Positions 16,645 to 38,389 of a stretch of 56,002 bases of DNA are shown in pieces. The translations under genes and the position numbers were made by a program. The notes below the pieces were generated by a model. That model was given only the letters and a program-made list of their open reading frames with translations, had not been told where the DNA came from and did no database searches. The stretch is taken from the IMG/VR virus record IMGVR_UViG_3300025128_000003, positions 1 through 56,002 of that record; one strand, given 5' to 3'. Within the stretch, counting starts at the first letter, position 1. Every line of letters starts with the position of its first letter. Origin of the DNA: a virus. Taxonomy: Duplodnaviria > Caudoviricetes.

Positions 16645-16988
16645 TGTGATATTAATGCAACAATATCCTTGATGAGTTACCTTGGTATTTTTGGTAAATA
16701 TTTGAGGGGTCTGTTTTATATATATACACATGCATGCGTTTTTGCGGGTGGGGGTCTACAAAGTCTTTTAGACTTTGACAGTCTGGCAAAAAAGAATGCT
16801 TTTTCTTTGAAAAAAACTACAAAGTTCTCTGTAAATCTGTAAGATTTAGCTTGACTGTGACATTTTAGTCATAGACTAAGAGTTTATTTATTACTCTCTA
16901 CTTAGCTTTCTTTGAAAGCAGAGAGTGATAAATAACTTATAAAACAATAGGTTATCGACAATCTGTTTGGTGTGACATTTATGTCACT
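16645..16988. repeat. Three imperfect 18-bp palindromes (putative operator sites) in the divergent intergenic region
   Basis: TGTGATATTAATGCAACA (16645), TGTGACATTTTAGTCATA (16856), TGTGACATTTATGTCACT (16971). Confidence 0.55.
16884..16935 (+). repeat. Bulged hairpin element 1 (ACTTA-bulge class)
   Basis: TTATTTATTACTCTCT-ACTTA-GCTTTC-TTT-GAAAGC-AGAGAGTGATAAATAA. Confidence 0.75.
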
Positions 16989-17041
16989 GCTGATGAAAAT
17001 CGACCAGCCCTTGATGAAGGGCTTGACAAGCTATGATGAAC

Positions 17042-17093
17042 TAATTAATAATCTTCTTAGTGAGTTCTTACGAACTAAGAAGATGATTAATTA
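17042..17093 (+). repeat. Bulged hairpin element 2
   Basis: TAATTAAT-A-ATCTTCTTA-GTGA-GTTC-TTAC-GAAC-TAAGAAGAT-G-ATTAATTA. Confidence 0.9.
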
Positions 17094-17108
17094 AACTGGA
17101 GAAACACA

Positions 17109-17288
17109 ATGAAAGCAATAGCTTTATTTGGATTTATGGTATCAACTATGTTGTTCCTACTCTGCATGCTGAAGGTAGCCACCGAAGGTGTTTTGTTTGG
17201 TTGGATTGTGATGGATATCACATTCCTGACAGTAATCCCCCTTTCGGCCATTTGGTTTTTAGTTCATGCCTGTGAGCCGAGAAACTAA
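17109..17288 (+). CDS. 59-aa two-TM early membrane protein
   Basis: Manual translation MKAIALFGFMVSTMLFLLCMLKV...; GGAG RBS; stop is the first TAA of element 3. Confidence 0.7.
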   Translation: MKAIALFGFMVSTMLFLLCMLKVATEGVLFGWIVMDITFLTVIPLSAIWFLVHACEPRN

Positions 17289-17338
17289 TTAATAATCTTA
17301 TAGTAGAGTATCTTACGATACTATAAGATGATTAATTA
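17286..17338 (+). repeat. Bulged hairpin element 3
   Basis: TAATTAAT-A-ATCTTATA-GTAGA-GTATC-TTAC-GATAC-TATAAGAT-G-ATTAATTA. Confidence 0.9.
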
Positions 17339-17353
17339 AAACTGGAGGTTGAG

Positions 17354-17521
17354 ATGAGTAAAATTGAATTGTTGAATGCCGAGTTTGCTGACCTTGATGT
17401 GACCGTTTCGGTCAGTGCTGGTGGTGGCGGGTTTGATATCTTTGAGAACTCCACTGGCAATCACATCACAACTTGTTGTGATTTGCAGGAAGTGGAAGCG
17501 ACCTTAGATGGTTGCTTCTGA
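17354..17521 (+). CDS. 55-aa acidic early protein
   Basis: Manual translation MSKIELLNAEFADLDVTVSV...; GGAGG RBS. Confidence 0.7.
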   Translation: MSKIELLNAEFADLDVTVSVSAGGGGFDIFENSTGNHITTCCDLQEVEATLDGCF

Positions 17522-17524
17522 GGT

Positions 17525-17576
17525 TAATTAATATCCTACAGGGTAAGTTCTTACGAACCCTGTAGGGTATTAATTA
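17525..17576 (+). repeat. Bulged hairpin element 4
   Basis: TAATTAATATCCTACAGG-GTAA-GTTC-TTAC-GAAC-CCTGTAGGGTATTAATTA. Confidence 0.9.
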
Positions 17577-17605
17577 TCTTAACCAGCCAACAAAGGAGAT
17601 GTCTA

Positions 17606-17731
17606 ATGATTAAGAACATGGTGTGCGATCTTATTGACTTTGCAAAGACAGGTCAAAGTGACCTGTTGGTTTGTTCACTCAACCACTATCGGTTGCCATG
17701 TCCAAAATGGTTGTTGAAATTCTGCGGGTAA
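17606..17731 (+). CDS. 41-aa Cys-containing early peptide
   Basis: Manual translation MIKNMVCDLIDFAKTGQSDLLVCSLNHYRLPCPKWLLKFCG; AAGGAG RBS; stop is the first TAA of element 5. Confidence 0.6.
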   Translation: MIKNMVCDLIDFAKTGQSDLLVCSLNHYRLPCPKWLLKFCG

Positions 17732-17781
17732 TTAATAATATCCCTGTAGAGTATCTTGCGATACAGGGATATGATTAATTA
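17729..17781 (+). repeat. Bulged hairpin element 5
   Basis: TAATTAAT-A-ATATCCCT-GTAGA-GTATC-TTGC-GATAC-AGGGATAT-G-ATTAATTA. Confidence 0.9.
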
Positions 17782-17814
17782 TCTTTTACCAACCGCCAAC
17801 GATAGGAGAATATC

Positions 17815-18012
17815 ATGGCAAAGCGTACTGAAAAAATTACCCAATCCTTTTCTGGCACCCGCTGGATGAAATTGCGGGACGGCTGGGAAGCCTTCCAAAA
17901 GGCAAAGGAGGACGGCAAGCCAATCCGTATCCTCCACCCTTCGGGTAGCTTTAAGGTAATCCACAATGCTTCGGCATTGCCGGAAGGTGTGGAGGCTAGG
18001 CATAAAGCCTAG
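17815..18012 (+). CDS. Hypothetical early protein
   Basis: AGGAG RBS; 65 aa. Confidence 0.7.
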   Translation: MAKRTEKITQSFSGTRWMKLRDGWEAFQKAKEDGKPIRILHPSGSFKVIHNASALPEGVEARHKA

Positions 18013-18130
18013 TCTCTGCAGGGCGAGGGATTGTCCCGGTTAAGCCAGTAACGCCCTAAAAATTAAGACGCTGGTAGGTGTGGTGAGCCTTCACTAGAAA
18101 TCACCATTAACTTTGCAAAGGAGATAGCCG

Positions 18131-18358
18131 ATGGCTAAAAAGACAGTAAAGACTTCGATCCGGGTAAACCCGAAAGGGAACTACAACTACGGCTTCCATC
18201 GCCTGAATAGTGGATATCGCTTAGATATCCCCTATGCTTCGGTGTCAGTCTTCGATGGTGGTAGCAATGCTACTGTGCGCCGTCCTACTAGTGGCCTACG
18301 GTTCATTTATGAGAATAACCGGAAGGGCAAGGTCAGAGTTGCCCATAACGTCGGCTAA
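18131..18358 (+). CDS. Hypothetical basic early protein
   Basis: AAGGAG RBS; stop is the first TAA of element 6. Confidence 0.7.
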   Translation: MAKKTVKTSIRVNPKGNYNYGFHRLNSGYRLDIPYASVSVFDGGSNATVRRPTSGLRFIYENNRKGKVRVAHNVG

Positions 18359-18407
18359 TTAAATATCTGCTAGGTAAGTTCTTACGAACCTAGCAGATGA
18401 TTAATTA
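18356..18407 (+). repeat. Bulged hairpin element 6
   Basis: TAATTAA-AT-ATCTGCTAG-GTAA-GTTC-TTAC-GAAC-CTAGCAGAT-GA-TTAATTA. Confidence 0.9.
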
Positions 18408-18422
18408 TCTGAGGAGAAAGGC

Positions 18423-18671
18423 ATGGATCGCAATAACATACGACTTACCTATAAAGGCTATGAAATATCCATAGCCCAACATAGAGAGGGAGATAAAGTT
18501 GTCCTTTCTGAGATAGCTCTGAAAGAGGATGGTGAATGGAAAACAGCTTTACAAGCTGGAGGTGCTATTGTAAATTTAGACTTTGGCAAAACGCTAGACG
18601 GTTTTGCTGGAGTACTCGGCTGTGTCATCTACTATATTGATGAAATCAAAGGGGAAGATTATGCTGGTTAA
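18423..18671 (+). CDS. Hypothetical early protein
   Basis: GAGGAG RBS; 82 aa. Confidence 0.7.
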   Translation: MDRNNIRLTYKGYEISIAQHREGDKVVLSEIALKEDGEWKTALQAGGAIVNLDFGKTLDGFAGVLGCVIYYIDEIKGEDYAG

Positions 18672-19284
18672 AGATGCGAAGACCTTCGGTGTTATCAGCA
18701 CCAAAAATACAAAGATGGGTAGCACCACCTTTGCGATTGATGCCTTTGCTTGCAAAGTTGGTGATAAACTTGCAAAGATCGAAGGAACACCATGCTTCTC
18801 TTGCTATGCAAGAAAGATTCAGAAGCTACGACCTTCGGTCGATCAAGGCTGGAAAACTAACCTTGCCAAGTGGGAACAATCTGATCCGAAGGATTGGATT
18901 AAAGCTATGGCTTTTCAGATCGAACGATACTGCTTCGATGGCTTTCACCGCTGGTTCGATAGCGGAGACTTACAGTCTGTTGAAATGCTGGATGCTATCT
19001 GTCAGGTAGCTAAAGCTACACCACAGATTAAACACTGGCTCCCAACACAGGAAAGGGGTATTGTAAAACAATACAGCAAACCAATTCCCGATAATTTAAT
19101 CATTAGAGTGTCGGCATCGATGATTAATGGTGACAAGCCTAGCTTTGACCATGCATCACAAGTCTTTTACAAAGTCGATCCGAAAGGCTTTGAATGTGGA
19201 GCAAGCAAGCGAGGCAATGCTTGTGGACCTTGCAAGGCTTGCTGGGATAAGTCGATAGACTTTATCAGCTATCCCAAACACTAA
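18661..19284 (+). CDS. Gp88-like Cys-rich (radical-SAM-like) protein
   Basis: Likely start MLVKDAK at 18661; C..G..L...GTPC.SCYA, RWFDSGD, HWLPT, C-terminal C......CGPCKACW..H. Confidence 0.7.
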   Translation: MLVKDAKTFGVISTKNTKMGSTTFAIDAFACKVGDKLAKIEGTPCFSCYARKIQKLRPSVDQGWKTNLAKWEQSDPKDWIKAMAFQIERYCFDGFHRWFDSGDLQSVEMLDAICQVAKATPQIKHWLPTQERGIVKQYSKPIPDNLIIRVSASMINGDKPSFDHASQVFYKVDPKGFECGASKRGNACGPCKACWDKSIDFISYPKH

Positions 19285-19333
19285 TTAATATCTATCTACT
19301 TAGCTTCTATAGAAGCAGATAGATAGTTAATTA
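19282..19333 (+). repeat. Bulged hairpin element 7 (ACTTA-bulge class)
   Basis: TAATTAA-TATCTATCT-ACTTA-GCTTC-TATA-GAAGC-AGATAGATA-G-TTAATTA. Confidence 0.85.
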
Positions 19334-19346
19334 ACTGGAGGTTATC

Positions 19347-19565
19347 ATGGATAAATTTCGTACTGCACTTCTCGATCTTACAGTCTCCGAAGGTGGGACT
19401 GTTTACATGGAGGAGAGTAATGACTCAGCCATTATTCTTTCTCCCTCCCAAATTCCTACAGTAATGCTGGCACTAAGCCAAGCATTAGTAAATAAGAAAG
19501 AGCAAGAGATGGCTGAAGGTCGGGAAGCGTTGCTTCAGAATTTAGTTTCTGAAGTTAGAGATTAA
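19347..19565 (+). CDS. Hypothetical protein (paralogue of 20797..20961)
   Basis: GGAGG RBS; GTVY...I.LS...IP.VM..L motif. Confidence 0.7.
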   Translation: MDKFRTALLDLTVSEGGTVYMEESNDSAIILSPSQIPTVMLALSQALVNKKEQEMAEGREALLQNLVSEVRD

Positions 19566-19584
19566 CTTTATTTGCTACGGGGTG

Positions 19585-19614
19585 TTGCCTAACGGCAGCA
19601 TCCTGTAGTATAAT
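19585..19614 (+). promoter_or_regulatory. Possible sigma70 promoter overlapping a GU-containing hairpin
   Basis: TTGCCT-N18-TATAAT; hairpin CTACGGGGTGTTGCC-TAAC-GGCAGCATCCTGTAG. Confidence 0.45.
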
Positions 19615-19659
19615 AATGTCTCTATCATACATAAATAATTTTGACATGCCATTTTGTCA

Positions 19660-19815
19660 ATGGCTAGAAGGTGAGCGACATCTTTGATCGAAGCAAAGTG
19701 ACATTTGCAAAACAACGTCAGACGCAAGTGCGAAGCAAATCTTGTCGGCTACGGGAGCCGTTAGGGGCTATTTGTGAAGGTTATGCTGCGTAGCAAGTAG
19801 CACCATCCGCACTCT
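19660..19815 (+). ncRNA. Candidate structured RNA / leader
   Basis: GC-richer stretch with no plausible + strand ORF and several stems (CGACA/TGTCG, CTTTG/CAAAG, TGAC/GTCA, CGGCT/AGCCG, TGCTGC/GTAGCA). Confidence 0.4.
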
Positions 19816-19832
19816 AACAATGGAGAAAGGCT

Positions 19833-19973
19833 ATGAAAAAAATAAAACAAAGAAGGATTGAGGCGCATGCCTTGAGCTTGCCACAGTTCAAGCGGCAGGT
19901 TGTTAAGTCTAAGAAGACTTACATTCGGAAACCTAAACACAAACAATCTGGAGGTAATTACTGTTATATATAG
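19833..19973 (+). CDS. 46-aa ArfA-like (alternative ribosome-rescue factor-like) basic peptide
   Basis: Manual translation MKKIKQRRIEAHALSLPQFKRQVVKSKKTYIRKPKHKQSGGNYCYI; resembles the ArfA pattern IEA.L..P.F...V.K.KK...Y.RK.KH but lacks GKGS; GGAG RBS. Confidence 0.55.
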   Translation: MKKIKQRRIEAHALSLPQFKRQVVKSKKTYIRKPKHKQSGGNYCYI

Positions 19974-20007
19974 TGGAGTTCTTACGAACTATATATAGCA
20001 GTAATTA
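19955..20007 (+). repeat. Bulged hairpin element 8
   Basis: TAATTACTGTTATATATA-GTGGA-GTTC-TTAC-GAAC-TATATATAGCAGTAATTA. Confidence 0.9.
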
Positions 20008-20021
20008 TCTGGAGAAAGGCA

Positions 20022-20231
20022 ATGGAGTACGAAGTAACAGTATACCGGACAATGGTACAAAAAGTAACTATTGTAAAAGATAGTCCCATCCCGTTGTCTA
20101 ATGAAATAGCAATAATTTTAAAAGAGGAGGCCGAAGACGAAGCTGCTGAGATGTATGACTACGAATGGACAGATGTATCATCTGACATAGAATATACTTG
20201 GACTGGAGTCGAACGAAAGAAGCAGCTATGA
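20022..20231 (+). CDS. Hypothetical acidic protein
   Basis: GGAG RBS; 69 aa. Confidence 0.7.
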   Translation: MEYEVTVYRTMVQKVTIVKDSPIPLSNEIAIILKEEAEDEAAEMYDYEWTDVSSDIEYTWTGVERKKQL

Positions 20232-24968: not shown

Positions 24969-25128
24969 TAGATGGCTAGTTCAAGTAGCAGGTAATGATG
25001 ACTTAGAAAAGTCATTATCATTTCAAAGTAAAAAAGAAGCTGAAGAATTTATTGAAGAACGAGTTGACATGGTACGTCACTTGGGATATGATCCCGATGA
25101 GACATACTATTTAATACCCATACAGTAA
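24961..25128 (+). CDS. 55-aa hypothetical protein
   Basis: Manual translation MTDRWLVQVAG...F.SKKEAEEFI; stop lies in the bulge of element 9. Confidence 0.65.
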   Translation: MTDRWLVQVAGNDDLEKSLSFQSKKEAEEFIEERVDMVRHLGYDPDETYYLIPIQ

Positions 25129-25157
25129 GTTCTACGAACTGTATGGGGATTAAATAG
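25107..25157 (+). repeat. Bulged hairpin element 9 (upstream of primase-helicase)
   Basis: CTATTTAAT-A-CCCATACA-GTAA-GTTC-TAC-GAAC-TGTATGGG-G-ATTAAATAG. Confidence 0.85.
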
Positions 25158-34108: not shown

Positions 34109-34185
34109 ACTCTCGTAGCTCAACTGGATAGAGCAACAGACTTCTAATCTGTAGGTTGCAGGTTCAAGTCCTGCCGAGAGTGCCA
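34109..34185 (+). tRNA. tRNA-Arg (anticodon TCT)
   Basis: Acceptor ACTCTCG/CGAGAGT, D-loop with GG, anticodon arm ACAGA-CTTCTAA-TCTGT, GGTTCAAGTCC T-arm, encoded CCA. Confidence 0.96.
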
Positions 34186-35318: not shown

Positions 35319-36099
35319 TATACCTACTATTTATATTGGGTATGATAGTAAAGAAGAAGTTGCATATAAGGTATTACAAGAATCAATTTTAGATCATACT
35401 ACTGCGCCTGTAAATATTATACCTCTACAACAGGGAAGACTAAGAGATATTAATTTTTATAGACGAACACACTTTGTAAAAGATAATATTAAATATGATT
35501 CTTTAGATAAAAAACCTTTCTCTACAGATTTTAGTTTTACAAGATTCCTTGTACCATTTTTACAAATGCATAGAGGTCTTGCACTTTTTATGGACTGTGA
35601 TATGTTGGTGAGATCAGATATTATGGAGGTGTTTGAAATCCCCCAACGATCAAAACAAAAAGCTATCTGGTGTGTTAAACATGATTACAGTCCTACGGTA
35701 GCCCTAAAGATGGACGGACAAATACAAACACACTATAGCAGAAAGAACTGGTCTTCTTTTGTACTGTGGAACTGCAGTCATGAAAGACATAAAAATTTTA
35801 CAATTGATGATGTTAATTTAAAGAATGGATGGTATCTTCATAACTTTCAATGGCTAGAAAATAGTGACATAGGTGATCTACCTGCAGCATGGAATTGGTT
35901 AGATGGTTATTCTAATGATGCAATTGAAGCAAAGAATGTACACTTTACTACAGGTGGTCCTTGGTTTAAAGATTGGAAACCTAGCAAACGATCTGATGCT
36001 AAATACGCATTAGAATGGGAGACTCTTCATGATGCTATCGTATTAGAAGAATCTCTTGGAAAGGAAAAACAAATTAAATGGGAAAAAACATATGTTTAA
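35308..36099 (+). CDS. Glycosyltransferase (GT-A, GT8-like)
   Basis: IYIGYD, STDFSFTRFLVP, FMDCD (DxD), RKNWSS, HFTTGGPW. Confidence 0.85.
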   Translation: MTNNIPTIYIGYDSKEEVAYKVLQESILDHTTAPVNIIPLQQGRLRDINFYRRTHFVKDNIKYDSLDKKPFSTDFSFTRFLVPFLQMHRGLALFMDCDMLVRSDIMEVFEIPQRSKQKAIWCVKHDYSPTVALKMDGQIQTHYSRKNWSSFVLWNCSHERHKNFTIDDVNLKNGWYLHNFQWLENSDIGDLPAAWNWLDGYSNDAIEAKNVHFTTGGPWFKDWKPSKRSDAKYALEWETLHDAIVLEESLGKEKQIKWEKTYV

Positions 36100-38389
36100 A
36101 AATGTAACAGTAGTAACTTCCTTTTCAGAGGATGGCTGGGATACCTATGCAAAAGAGATGATATGGTCTATTGCAGAAAACTGGGAACCAGAGATTAAAG
36201 TTGTAGCTTATTATCATGACTTTGATATTACAACAAAAGACCTACCAGAGTGCAGACATATTGAATATCGAAACCTTAATGATCTAAGTGAACTGATTGA
36301 ATTTAGAGAAAGGTTTAAAGAGTATGATGGTACAATGGGTGGTAAGTCCCAATATACTTTTAGATTAGACGCTATTAAGTTTTGTCACAAAGTCTTTGCT
36401 ATTACAGACTGTGCCTTTGGTCTTTGCGAAACAGTTGAGAAGCCGGGATGGCTTGTGTGGCTAGACGCAGACACAGTAGCAGTTAGACCTCTTAGTAGAT
36501 ATAATCTTTTACAAAGCCTACCGAAAGGTAGTGATCTTGTACACTTAGGTAGAAAGAACTTTACTTATAGTGAGACTTCTTTTATTGGGCTTAATCTAGA
36601 AAGCCAACCACCTATAGATTTTCTAGGTGATTTTCTGGGGGCATATCTTTCAGGCGAACTGCTGCACTACAGAGAGTGGCATGATGGTTTTATCTTTGAA
36701 CGACTACTAACAATCTACAAAGCACATGGTCTAAAGTTTCATGATTGGACAGGTGATCTAGATATTAAGAGTATGACGGAAGGTAAACAAGCCTTTGAAT
36801 TATTTCCACTGGGTTCTTATGTTAAGCACAAGAAGGGTAAAAAGAAAGATAAAACATATGAAGTAGCTCCTGATGTAACAGGTCCAGCCAGATATAAACA
36901 ACTTAATAAAATGGTTGATACCTACAAACCTAACACAATTGTAGAAACAGGAACTTGGAATGGTGGTAGGGCTATTGAAATGGCTATGTCAGCATTCCTG
37001 CATGTTGATGAAGTAACCTATACAGGATATGATTTATTTGAGGATGCTACAGAAGAGCTTGATAAAGAAGAGCTTAACAGTAAAGCACACAACAGCATTG
37101 AAGCAGTGACTGCTAGGCTAGATGAGTTTACTGAAGCTATGAAAAGCCAAGGTAAAACTTTTAACTTTACTCTTATCAAGGGTGACACAAAAGAAACTCT
37201 TAAAAATACAAAAGCAGACTTTGCTTATATTGATGGAGGACACTCTGAAGATACAGTAAACCATGACTACGAGATGCTAAAGGAATGTGACGTAATTGTA
37301 TTTGATGACTATGTAACTAAAGATGAGAACGGCAACGATCCCGGCGAAGAGTTCTATGGTGTAAATAAAATTATTGAAAAGTTTGAAGGTCGTAAAAAAA
37401 TCCTACCATCAAAAGACAGGATTGTAGAGGGTGGTATCACACACCTAGCTGTCGTTATCAATAATGATAACATACCAGACATACCAGAAAACTTTGACGC
37501 TATACCAATTGTTATCCAACCAAGAGATTGTATGCCTAAAGAAGATATACAGAACAATGTTAAAGAGAATACTAAGCTTATTAATAAATGGATTGGAAGA
37601 GCATCACCTAATGACGAGGTAGCTGTTCTAATATCAGGTGGGGATAGCACTGATTGGGATAAGGTAAGGTCTATTATTGATATGGAGGGACCGCTACGCA
37701 CTAAGGTAGTATGCGTTAAACATTCTTATCCTACTCTACTTAAACAAAAGATTCAGCCTTGGGCCTGTGTTATCCTTGATCCAAGACCCATTGAAGGACT
37801 AAGTACACATGGAGTAGTTCGTAAAGATTTGTTTAAAGACATTGATCCACAAACTATCTTTATGCCAGCATCTATGACTGATCCTTCTATTGTTAAGCTA
37901 ATTAAAGAAAAGACAAATAACATTATTGGATGGCATGCATTTACACAATCACTACAAGAGAATCAAAAAGATCAGCTAGTTAATAATGCTGTTAAAGTTA
38001 ATGAAGAGCTAGGTATACAAGAAGGTGCTACTATGATTACAGGTGGAACCTGTGCAGCTATGAGGTCAATAGGTATCATGCACACTCTTGGCTTTAGAAA
38101 GTTTCATTTATTTGGATATGATTGCTCTATGCCAGAGCCACCAGATGAAGATAAAGATCAAAAGATGGAAGATGGAAAACCAAAGTATCTAAAGGTTGGT
38201 GTTAAAGAGCAAGAGTTCTGGACAACTGGAGAGCTTATTGCGATGGCACAGGACTGTGAAAAACTATTTTCAAAAGAAGATGTTGATATGAAGATTAATT
38301 TTCATGGAGAAAATACTTTGGTAGCTGCATGCTGGGAGCTATCACCAGTACATCAATTAAAACACTATCACCAAGTACTAGACTTATAG
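36092..38389 (+). CDS. Three-domain fusion: glycosyltransferase + class I SAM methyltransferase + DUF115/Maf-like domain
   Basis: KFCHKV..WLDAD..EWHD (GT); IVETGTWNGG, GYDLF, IDGGH, VFDD (MTase); ISGG.S, GGTCAAMR....LGFRKFHLFGYD (DUF115/MptE-like). Confidence 0.75.
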   Translation: MFKNVTVVTSFSEDGWDTYAKEMIWSIAENWEPEIKVVAYYHDFDITTKDLPECRHIEYRNLNDLSELIEFRERFKEYDGTMGGKSQYTFRLDAIKFCHKVFAITDCAFGLCETVEKPGWLVWLDADTVAVRPLSRYNLLQSLPKGSDLVHLGRKNFTYSETSFIGLNLESQPPIDFLGDFLGAYLSGELLHYREWHDGFIFERLLTIYKAHGLKFHDWTGDLDIKSMTEGKQAFELFPLGSYVKHKKGKKKDKTYEVAPDVTGPARYKQLNKMVDTYKPNTIVETGTWNGGRAIEMAMSAFLHVDEVTYTGYDLFEDATEELDKEELNSKAHNSIEAVTARLDEFTEAMKSQGKTFNFTLIKGDTKETLKNTKADFAYIDGGHSEDTVNHDYEMLKECDVIVFDDYVTKDENGNDPGEEFYGVNKIIEKFEGRKKILPSKDRIVEGGITHLAVVINNDNIPDIPENFDAIPIVIQPRDCMPKEDIQNNVKENTKLINKWIGRASPNDEVAVLISGGDSTDWDKVRSIIDMEGPLRTKVVCVKHSYPTLLKQKIQPWACVILDPRPIEGLSTHGVVRKDLFKDIDPQTIFMPASMTDPSIVKLIKEKTNNIIGWHAFTQSLQENQKDQLVNNAVKVNEELGIQEGATMITGGTCAAMRSIGIMHTLGFRKFHLFGYDCSMPEPPDEDKDQKMEDGKPKYLKVGVKEQEFWTTGELIAMAQDCEKLFSKEDVDMKINFHGENTLVAACWELSPVHQLKHYHQVLDL

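What the first reader, a model, noticed from the sequence alone, without database searches (positions are those of the whole stretch)
16884..20007. Family of covarying bulged hairpins that separates early genes like cassettes
Seen: eight ~52-nt elements at 16884, 17042, 17286, 17525, 17729, 18356, 19282 and 19955, plus a ninth at 25107. Architecture is TAATTA(AT) - [8-12 bp stem] - 4-5 nt 5' bulge - GT(A)TC-loop-GA(T)AC cap - [stem'] - (AT)TAATTA. The middle stem differs in sequence between copies (ATCTTCTTA, ATCCTACAGG, ATATCCCT, ATCTGCTAG, CTGTTATATATA) yet stays complementary, so shape rather than sequence appears conserved. Non-Watson-Crick pairs are G.U on the + strand (elements 1, 4, 8), and an A.G mismatch recurs at the same position (2, 3, 5, 9). 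The first TAA is the upstream stop codon in four cases, and every copy except element 1 is followed by an RBS and ATG. Known analogy: T7 early mRNA is cut at RNase III hairpins between genes. Inference: these are mRNA-processing or protein-binding sites with a fixed cap and bulge, and may also act as recombination points for shuffling small early genes.
Basis: partly seen in the sequence, partly recalled or inferred. Interest (0 to 1): 0.85.

Follow-up and report, generated by a model that had tools for sequence, protein, structure and literature searches.

The report
Hairpin punctuation between phage early genes
An uncultured marine phage and its relatives separate their small early genes with a conserved family of about 52-base RNA hairpins that probably mark where the long early message is processed or stabilised, and that also coincide with the places where genes are swapped in and out between related phages.

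Summary
The window is a complete 56-kb virus record. It holds exactly nine ~52-nt hairpins at the stated coordinates, all on the + (sense) strand. A covariance model finds the same family in many related IMG/VR contigs: 81 distinct sequences and 36 further distinct rows. Covariation is very strong: 97.3% of cells paired and 19 of 22 pairs with double changes in the set not used to build the model. Wobbles sit on the sense strand only (G.U 18, A.C 0). The elements lie between a stop codon and the next Shine-Dalgarno/ATG.

For the other seven, a continuous stem with a GA/GA internal loop and a 2-3 bp cap fits better.

Close relatives differ by single-gene cassettes bounded by the elements.

Function is inferred, not shown. 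The most likely role is intercistronic RNA processing or stability sites like the RNase III hairpins of T7 early mRNA, doubling as homology patches like T4 PeSLs. No Rfam family matches, and no phage-encoded RNase III, integrase or Y1 transposase was found. I rate it a new variant of a known kind.

The parts
16884..16935 (+). e1. Type II hairpin: outer stem TTATTTAT/ATAAATAA, U.G wobble, 7-bp middle stem, 5-nt 5' bulge ACUUA, 6-bp cap GCUUUC/GAAAGC, UUU loop. First element, in the leader before the first early gene.
   Evidence: The identical sequence is found at 11 places in the loci searched, as the first element of close relatives.
17042..17093 (+). e2. Type I hairpin: TAATTAAT outer stem, A.G mismatch, 11-bp middle stem, GA/GA internal loop, GU/AC cap, UCUU loop.
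   Evidence: A promoter-like TTGACA-18-AATAAT at 17023-17052 overlaps its 5' arm.
17286..17338 (+). e3. Type I hairpin with a 3-bp cap GUA/UAC. Its first TAA is the stop of the upstream ORF.
17525..17576 (+). e4. Type I hairpin with AA/GA internal loop and a U.G wobble in the stem.
17729..17781 (+). e5. Type I hairpin with 3-bp cap GUA/UGC (U.G). Its first TAA is the upstream stop.
18356..18407 (+). e6. Type I hairpin. Its first TAA is the upstream stop.
   Evidence: It is 98.6% identical to the copy in L017 although the neighbouring genes differ.
19282..19333 (+). e7. Type II hairpin: bulge ACUUA, cap GCUUC/GAAGC. Its first TAA is the stop of the GP88-like gene.
19955..20007 (+). e8. Type I hairpin with outer stem TAATTACTG/CAGTAATTA, GGA/GA internal loop and a U.G wobble.
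25107..25157 (+). e9. Type I hairpin with outer stem CTATTTAAT/ATTAAATAG, 11 nt before the ATG of the primase-helicase gene.
   Evidence: This position before the primase-helicase gene is kept in relatives.
25064..25092 (+). Promoter-like TTGACA-17-TATGAT. It would start a transcript about 8 nt before e9.
   Evidence: 11 of 12 matches. Conserved in 4 close relatives, but it lies inside a coding frame.
16851..16877 (+). Promoter-like TTGACT-15-TAGACT just before e1, overlapped by a GTGACAT half-site.
   Evidence: Read. The spacing is outside the scan rule, so the scan did not score it. Conserved in close relatives.
16936..20100 (+). Variable region of small ORFs with no known family, each preceded by a hairpin, a short leader and a GGAG Shine-Dalgarno.

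Best explanation
The nine elements belong to a conserved family of sense-strand RNA hairpins that punctuate the polycistronic early and middle transcripts of a clade of uncultured marine phages of about 56 kb.

Each element is modular:
- An all-A/U outer stem of about 8 bp. It is the same within a genome but differs between lineages, and often supplies the upstream gene's stop codon.
- A conserved non-Watson-Crick pair (A.G, or U.G).
- A freely covarying middle stem of 10-11 bp.
- One of two conserved apical modules.

The helix is about two turns long and is interrupted by small non-canonical sites. It starts at the stop codon and ends 11-34 nt before the next start.

Most likely mechanism (inferred, not shown): the hairpins are processing and/or stabilising sites for a host double-strand-specific RNase (RNase III type). 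This would cut the early message into gene-sized mRNAs that keep a protective hairpin, as in T7 early mRNA.

Second role, shown only as a pattern: as ~50-bp repeats in direct orientation, the elements act as homology patches. The phage's own annealing/exonuclease/resolvase genes could exchange, delete or insert single-gene cassettes there, as proposed for T4 PeSLs.
For: Shown here:
- The family is real and conserved. There are 81 distinct sequences in relatives and 36 more distinct rows from other contigs.
- In that second set, 97.3% of 753 cells pair and 19 of 22 pairs have changes on both sides. The covariation score is 0.625, against 0.139 in shuffles (0 of 500 reach it) and at most 0.131 when the partners are slid.
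- Lower stems hold G.U 18, A.C 0 and A.G 28 among 1,228 pair positions. The sense strand is more stable in 68 of 81.
- All matches in relatives lie on the strand opposite the terminase gene, as in the window.
- Position in 126 distinct contexts: a stop codon lies within -12 to +26 nt of the element start in 93, using the element's first TAA in 32. A start codon follows 3-53 nt after the end in 99.
- The hairpins fold independently of their flanks, and the Shine-Dalgarno is left free in e2 and e9.
- The helix is about two turns with small interruptions, the features listed for E. coli RNase III substrates in PMC1540722 (passages read).
- The T7 early intergenic hairpins have the same layout of stop codon, hairpin, leader and AUG.
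- Cassette pattern: phages with 95-99% identical terminase differ by presence, absence or replacement of single small ORFs between elements.
- Homology breakpoints fall within 12 nt of an element in 10 of 36 cases (6.8% expected, p 1e-4), or 10 of 25 within 16936-20100 (17.3% expected, p 0.006).
- Contigs of related strains join 17093 to 17790 (side 33) and 19281 to 19563 (sides 30 and 55) at element borders.
- The same gene is preceded by different elements, and the same element sits beside different genes.
- The phage encodes a gp2.5-like annealing protein, a Cas4-like exonuclease and an endonuclease VII.
Against: - No RNA 5' or 3' end, cleavage or binding was observed. The two RNA runs are contigs and cannot show ends.
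- The host, and therefore its RNase III, is unknown. The phage has no RNase III of its own.
- A nearly perfect 19-20 bp stem would be expected to be cut on both strands, which would not leave a protective 3' hairpin.
- RNase III does not explain why the apical module (GA/GA loop plus cap) is conserved across lineages, or why the outer stem is uniform within a genome.
- Type II elements fold slightly better on the antisense strand in 7 of 9 distinct sequences.
- Two outer arms double as -10-like boxes, which points to a transcriptional role.
- Breakpoints are enriched at elements but not confined to them: 26 of 36 lie elsewhere. BLAST segment ends reflect divergence as well as recombination.
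- One joint has a short side of 23.
Confidence: 0.45

Rival explanations
1. The hairpins are operators for a sequence- and shape-specific RNA-binding protein, phage or host, that times or tunes translation or decay of each early cistron. The conserved apical module and the genome-specific outer stem would be the recognition surfaces.
For: - The apical module is conserved across lineages while the middle stem drifts.
- The outer stem is uniform within a genome but differs between lineages: TAATTAAT, CTAATAAT, TTAAAAAA, TAAGTTAG, CAATTAGT.
- The hairpin ends 4-5 nt before the Shine-Dalgarno in the short leaders.
- A conserved 65-aa early protein (17815-18012) occurs in 3 of 3 element-bearing and 0 of 2 element-free near-complete relatives.
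Against: - That co-occurrence involves five related genomes and may be plain kinship.
- The protein has no Pfam or PHROG family and no PDB fold match at E <= 0.001.
- Uniform outer stems can also arise by gene conversion among repeats.
Confidence: 0.17
2. The hairpins are transcription attenuators or terminators that insulate each cassette, as the stem-loops of T4 PeSLs do. The U/A-rich 3' arm and leader would serve as a weak U-tract.
For: - The elements are intergenic stem-loops in a variable region, as described for PeSLs (PMC2839356, passages read).
- The 3' arm AUUAAUUA is followed by UCUUUUA or UCUUAA in e4 and e5.
- Promoter-like hexamers overlap e2 and e5.
Against: - 0 of 9 elements meet the terminator rule of the scan.
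- The base of the stem is all A/U, not G+C-rich.
- Only e2 (11 of 12) and e5 (9 of 12) have an overlapping promoter-like site, so downstream genes would go untranscribed if termination were efficient.
- The conserved mismatch and apical motif are not needed for termination.
Confidence: 0.13
3. The elements act as folded single-stranded DNA sites for a dedicated recombinase or transposase (integron attC-like or REP/RAYT-like), or are selfish miniature palindromes that spread by themselves.
For: - Structure rather than sequence is conserved, with one-sided unpaired bases and all copies in one orientation between promoterless cassettes.
- Identical copies occur at several places in one genome.
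- G.T wobbles would also stabilise sense-strand DNA.
Against: - The complete genome has no tyrosine recombinase and no Y1 transposase.
- No target-site duplication or clean empty site was seen where one was looked for. The gap between the two genes in the window is unrelated sequence, not an empty site.
- The elements are tightly tied to stop codons and Shine-Dalgarno leaders.
- No copy was found in 185,579 bacterial and archaeal species genomes: 3 pattern matches, 0 confirmed by the model.
Confidence: 0.08

Closest known systems
RNase III processing hairpins of the phage T7 early region (R0.3, R0.5, R1, R1.1, R1.3). The site names and their cleavage are recalled from Dunn and Studier's work and are not annotated in the record read.
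   Same: - A family of related hairpins of about 45-55 nt on the sense strand of a polycistronic early mRNA made by host RNA polymerase.
- The first one lies in the leader after the early promoters, the others between cistrons.
- The hairpin starts at or next to the upstream stop codon and ends about 20-30 nt before the next AUG (versus 33).
- Helices are interrupted by small non-canonical sites.
   Different: - There is no sequence likeness (compare).
- T7 sites have a short lower stem, a large asymmetric internal loop and a G+C-rich upper stem.
- These elements have a nearly continuous 19-20 bp A/U-rich stem with one 1x1 mismatch, plus a GA/GA loop or 5-nt bulge near the tip.
- Cleavage is not shown here.
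PeSLs (promoter-early stem-loops) of T4-like phages (PMC2839356, passages read; PMC4122927, abstract read)
   Same: - Short conserved intergenic motifs with a stem-loop, dense in a variable region of small genes with no known family.
- Indels and replacements between close relatives are bounded by them.
- They are proposed to work as linker homology for the phage's own recombination system.
   Different: - PeSLs are defined by a strong sigma-70 promoter plus a G/C-tract terminator stem-loop.
- Here most elements have no promoter, the stem is A/U-rich with no terminator signature, and the conserved part is RNA shape with covariation.
- Mini-circles were not tested.
Bacterial REP/BIME-type intergenic palindromes and integron attC sites (features recalled)
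   Same: Repeated imperfect palindromes between genes. REPs stabilise upstream mRNA, and attC sites are recognised by shape and bound gene cassettes.
   Different: No cognate RAYT or IntI gene is present. There are no copies in bacterial genomes. The elements are tied to translation signals.

Membership tests
T7-type RNase III processing site | Hairpin on the sense strand between cistrons (or in the leader) of a polycistronic phage mRNA | tested here: met
   T7 layout.
T7-type RNase III processing site | Helix of about two turns (PMC1540722, passage read) | tested here: met
T7-type RNase III processing site | Internal loop or bulge that limits cleavage to one strand | tested here: inconclusive
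   A conserved 1x1 A.G or U.G site and a GA/GA loop or 5-nt bulge exist. Whether they direct cleavage is unknown.
T7-type RNase III processing site | Cut by RNase III in vivo or in vitro | not testable with these tools
   Only RNA contigs were on hand.
T7-type RNase III processing site | Sequence relationship to the T7 sites | tested here: not met
   No shared motif by inspection. No Rfam match.
PeSL (T4-like phages) | Strong sigma-70-like promoter within the motif | tested here: not met
   Only e2 (11 of 12) and e5 (9 of 12) overlap a promoter-like site. The other intergenic elements have none.
PeSL (T4-like phages) | Stem-loop acting as terminator | tested here: inconclusive
   The stem-loop is present. 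0 of 9 meet the terminator-like rule. Function was not assayed.
PeSL (T4-like phages) | Bounds indels and replacements between close relatives in a variable region | tested here: met
Integron attC | Associated tyrosine recombinase (IntI) | tested here: not met
   PF00589: 0 matches in the complete genome. The control rings in 14 of 14 genomes.
Integron attC | Conserved core sites at the ends of the palindrome (recalled consensus) | tested here: not met
   The ends are TAATTAAT/ATTAATTA or lineage variants. The consensus is recalled, not from a call.
REP/RAYT | Cognate Y1 (HUH) transposase | tested here: not met
   PF01797: 0 matches.
Intrinsic terminator | G+C-rich stem followed by a U-tract | tested here: not met
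   one search lists none of the nine.
Any Rfam family | Score at or above the gathering threshold | tested here: not met
   Only a tRNA at 34109-34182 passes. At E <= 1 there are five matches to miRNA-precursor models, at 18.6-22.4 bits against thresholds of 55-110.

The most novel reading that the evidence does not exclude
The hairpins are the specific recognition sites of a dedicated phage factor, possibly the conserved 65-aa early protein at 17815-18012 that co-occurs with them. That factor would process the RNA or act on the folded sense-strand DNA. Together they would form a phage-borne cassette platform for early anti-host genes: integron-like in logic, but without a tyrosine recombinase. 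The genome-specific outer stem would be the 'address' and the GA/GA apical module the conserved handle.
Probability: 0.1. Interest if true: 0.85.

Novelty: new variant of a known kind. Interest (0 to 1): 0.62.

Why it matters
Regulation of early genes in uncultured marine phages is essentially unknown. This is a large structured-RNA family with strong covariation: more than 100 distinct sequences in the loci searched. It is absent from Rfam, from GenBank phages searched by BLAST, and from the nearest cultured relative, Pelagibacter phage HTVC023P.

It gives a concrete, testable handle on two questions:
- How such phages cut or stabilise their early messages.
- How the fast-changing set of small early genes, the usual home of host-takeover and anti-defence functions, is exchanged gene by gene.

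It also shows that a T7-like 'hairpin punctuation' layout and a T4-like 'linker' role can reside in one element. A covariance model of the family could mark early regions and cassette borders in viromes.

Tried and rejected
RNA evidence. One search for runs gave two metatranscriptome runs with a 0.05 share of the words. Laid as contigs, they cover parts of the region. One 162-nt RNA contig spans 16929-17090, from the 3' arm of e1 to the 3' arm of e2. Contigs cannot show ends, and DNA may be present in such libraries, so I draw no conclusion from this or from parts without cover.

Partner protein. The 65-aa protein P0001 has 20 homologues, none with a family name. It has no Pfam or PHROG hit. 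The AlphaFold model has pLDDT 83.4. No PDB match reached E <= 0.001 among the 500 rows counted. This gave no functional lead.

Selfish-element test. In L054 an element lies between the two genes that are adjacent in the window. The window's 118-nt gap there is unrelated, unstructured sequence (z 0.12). This is a replacement, not a clean insertion with a duplicated target.

Searches for the family elsewhere:
- Bacterial genomes gave 3 pattern matches, of which 0 were confirmed by the model at E <= 0.001.
- GenBank phages gave no megablast match to 10 kb and no blastn match to e4 plus its leader.
- HTVC023P gave no model match at E <= 1.
- Two near-complete relatives (G003, G004) have no match at E <= 0.01. 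One of them carries a different repeated hairpin.

Caveat. The low pairing (57.6%) of the apical helix there is partly a register artefact for elements with the 3-bp cap. The fair comparison is.

A kink-turn reading of the GA/GA loop was considered and dropped. The 3-nt bulge that defines a kink-turn (recalled) is absent in most copies.

Literature. Searches found no description of this family. Supplements were not seen.

Full report
WHAT THE WINDOW IS

The 56,002-base window is a whole IMG/VR virus record with direct terminal repeats.

- Genes for portal, large terminase and major head protein lie on the - strand up to 16500.
- From about 16900 the + strand carries a run of small ORFs. These have no Pfam or PHROG family, except a GP88-like protein.
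- After them come DUF932, a cell-wall hydrolase, ThyX, a T7-type primase-helicase, DNA polymerase, a gp2.5-like annealing protein, a Cas4-like exonuclease, ribonucleotide reductase and endonuclease VII.
- Pfam found no RNA polymerase in the large ORFs tested.
- The closest cultured phage by terminase is Pelagibacter phage HTVC023P, at about 40% identity.
- Runs that hold the sequence are labelled marine metagenomes. Only X6, X7, X23 and X24 were laid.

Nine hairpins of 51-53 nt stand at the stated coordinates, all on the + strand.

- Each folds far better than shuffles: z is -4.3 to -8.1, and 0 of 200 shuffles do as well.
- The + strand folds better than the - strand in 8 of 9.
- A covariance model (R1) run without filters over the whole genome returns these nine, their mirror images, and nothing else above 16.3 bits.
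- The details on G.U pairs, the recurrent A.G mismatch, the four TAA stops and the Shine-Dalgarno/ATG after e2-e9 are all correct.

ANATOMY, REVISED

There are two sub-types.

Type II (e1, e7) has a 5-nt 5' bulge ACUUA and a 5-6 bp cap GCUU(U)C/GAAGC.

Type I (the other seven) can be drawn in two ways:
- An alternative: a continuous stem, then a symmetric internal loop (5' GA or AA opposite 3' GA), a 2-3 bp cap (GU/AC or GUA/UAC) and a 3-4 nt loop.

RNAfold prefers the second. The comparison on 71 distinct type I sequences is:

| Fold | Pair (alignment columns) | Result |
|---|---|---|
| Continuous stem + GA/GA loop | first cap pair | 71 of 71 paired (GC 63, CG 4, GU 2, AU 1, UA 1) |
| Continuous stem + GA/GA loop | second cap pair | 70 of 71 paired (UA 64, UG 5, CG 1) |

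The bulged cap cannot form in several variants whose caps are UU/AA, AU/AU or GC/GC.

On 36 distinct rows from contigs that were not used to build the model, the second fold gives 97.3% of 753 cells paired and 19 of 22 pairs with double changes.

Both folds are possible for most copies because each arm carries a short direct repeat around the GA. I cannot say whether that duality is used.

Below the tip, every element has three parts:
- A middle stem of 10-11 bp that varies freely.
- A conserved non-canonical pair, A.G in most copies, otherwise U.G, A.A or U.U.
- An outer stem of about 8 A/U pairs.

THE FAMILY IN RELATIVES

- A terminase search fetched 80 related loci.
- Two exact-pattern scans found 39 and 36 stretches in IMG/VR.
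- The model then matched many of them, always on the strand opposite the terminase.
- After removing mirror images there are 81 distinct sequences in the first sets and 36 distinct rows in the last.
- In whole near-complete relatives the sense-strand copies number 7, 6 and 4. Two more distant relatives have none at E <= 0.01. One of those two has a different repeated hairpin.
- The family was not found in GTDB species genomes, in GenBank phages by BLAST, in HTVC023P or in Rfam.

RNA OR DNA, AND WHICH STRAND

- In the lower stems of the 81 distinct sequences there are 1,164 Watson-Crick pairs, 18 G.U, 0 A.C, 28 A.G and 18 other mismatches.
- The sense strand is the more stable in 68, equal in 5 and less stable in 8. 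Seven of those 8 are type II (hand count).
- In 126 distinct contexts a stop codon lies at -12 to +26 of the element start in 93, and at the first base in 32. A start codon opening at least 30 codons follows 3-53 nt after the end in 99. Most of the rest lie at contig ends.
- The hairpin folds on its own within its flanks.

These facts point to a sense-strand transcript. Sense-strand single-stranded DNA is not excluded by the wobble argument alone.

PLACE IN THE TRANSCRIPTION MAP (INFERRED)

- e1 follows a conserved promoter-like TTGACT-15-TAGACT.
- e9 follows TTGACA-17-TATGAT.
- Both would therefore lie at or near the 5' end of a primary transcript.
- The other seven lie directly after stop codons, with no room for a promoter. 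The exception is that the 5' arms of e2 and e5 can be read as -10 boxes with upstream -35-like hexamers.
- None of the nine looks like an intrinsic terminator.

CASSETTE BEHAVIOUR

Gene-order maps of 34 loci show the pattern. Phages with 95-99% identical terminase share the first element and the later replication block. Between the elements they differ by the presence, absence or replacement of single small ORFs.

- The same gene cluster is preceded by different elements in different genomes, even by type I in one and type II in another. The short leader travels with the gene.
- By the script's labels, 21 of 76 distinct element sequences have more than one gene context. At least 11 remain when contexts that differ only by an unlabelled neighbour are set aside (hand count).
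- Outer stems are uniform within a genome but differ between lineages, with both arms changed together. This is concerted evolution.
- Ends of BLAST homology (segments of at least 150 nt, merged within 5 nt) fall within 12 nt of an element in 10 of 36 cases, against 6.8% expected (p 1e-4). Within 16936-20100 the figure is 10 of 25, against 17.3% expected (p 0.006). 26 of 36 lie elsewhere, several of them at start codons.
- Contigs of related strains join 17093 to 17790 with three other letters between (side 33). They join 19281 to 19563 in a DNA run (side 30) and an RNA run (side 55). They join 17039 to 17301 with 17 other letters between (side 23, weak).

HOW IT MOST LIKELY WORKS

The layout is stop codon, a hairpin of about two helical turns with small non-canonical interruptions, a 10-30 nt leader, a Shine-Dalgarno and an AUG. 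It is repeated along an early polycistronic message made by host polymerase, with a first copy in the leader.

This is the layout of the T7 early region. There the intergenic hairpins folded start at the stop codons of genes 0.4, 0.7 and 1.2. That these T7 hairpins are RNase III sites is recalled, not annotated in the record.

PMC1540722 (passages read) states two relevant points:
- E. coli RNase III substrates typically have two helical turns.
- Internal loops or bulges can limit cutting to one strand, leaving a protective 3' hairpin.

I therefore rank host RNase III-type processing and stabilisation first. The conserved A.G/U.G site is the predicted place of cutting. This is an inference: no end or cleavage was seen.

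The same paper notes a bulge-helix-bulge arrangement that lets RNase III bind without cutting. Binding without cleavage is therefore a sub-variant.

What RNase III does not explain is the conserved tip and the genome-uniform outer stem. This keeps alive a specific-binder model. A small early protein (17815-18012) co-occurs with the elements in the five relatives tested. That is a weak lead, and its fold gave no hint.

The recombination role is best seen as a consequence of direct repeats of about 50 bp in a phage that encodes annealing, exonuclease and resolvase functions. This is what was argued for PeSLs (PMC2839356, passages read).

COMPARISON AND NOVELTY

The elements work like T7 RNase III punctuation and like PeSL linkers, but they are members of neither.

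- They share no sequence with the T7 sites.
- They lack the promoter and terminator that define PeSLs.
- Integron attC and REP/RAYT memberships fail on the missing enzymes.

I rate this a new variant of a known kind. It is a previously undescribed family (literature searches found nothing; supplements not seen), with unusually clear covariation and a modular build.

LIMITS

- The script machine was lost, so two tallies are hand counts.
- The model was seeded from this window, so distant members may be missed.
- Related sequences are not independent, so the shuffle controls overstate significance. The slid-partner controls are the safer comparison, and they are also far below the observed values.

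Noticed in passing
window 16972-16987 and 16857-16863: A perfect 16-nt palindrome GTGACATTTATGTCAC lies between e1 and e2. The half-site GTGACAT occurs again inside the promoter-like sequence before e1. This looks like an operator pair. The 40-aa GTG ORF at 16972-17094 is therefore probably not a gene.
   Followed up: partly
window 17023-17052 and 17714-17741: Promoter-like sites TTGACA-18-AATAAT (11 of 12) and TTGAAA-16-TAATAT (9 of 12) use the 5' outer arm of e2 and e5 as the -10 box. A transcript started there would lack the 5' arm and could not form the hairpin.
   Followed up: no
window 19566-19832: A long gap without an element holds TTGCCT-18-TATAAT at 19585-19614, inverted repeats around it, and a joint 19617 to 19830 in one RNA contig. 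It is possibly a second early or middle promoter region.
   Followed up: no
L083 5565-5603, 9057-9095, 637-674; window 18019-18058: A distant relative without this family carries another repeated hairpin (arms AGCAATCCCTCGCT / AGTGAGGGATTGCT) in the same region. A similar GCGAGGGATTG motif lies in the window between two early genes. Hairpin families may turn over in this phage group.
   Followed up: no
window 17815-18012: A conserved 65-aa early protein with a PIRILHPSGSFKVIHN core has 20 homologues, all unnamed. It is present in 3 of 3 element-bearing and 0 of 2 element-free near-complete relatives. It has a confident model but no known fold.
   Followed up: partly
window 18423-18660: The 82-aa ORF at 18423-18671 is an insertion relative to L010 and L110. 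It sits exactly between the e6 leader and the start of the GP88-like gene. This is cassette gain at a start codon without a second element.
   Followed up: partly
window 34109-34182: A tRNA gene, the only Rfam match at gathering score (72.8 bits).
   Followed up: no
window 36056-38389: A 777-aa protein combines methyltransferase domains (Methyltransf_24, TylF) with an MptE-like domain. This is an unusual fusion for a phage of this size.
   Followed up: no
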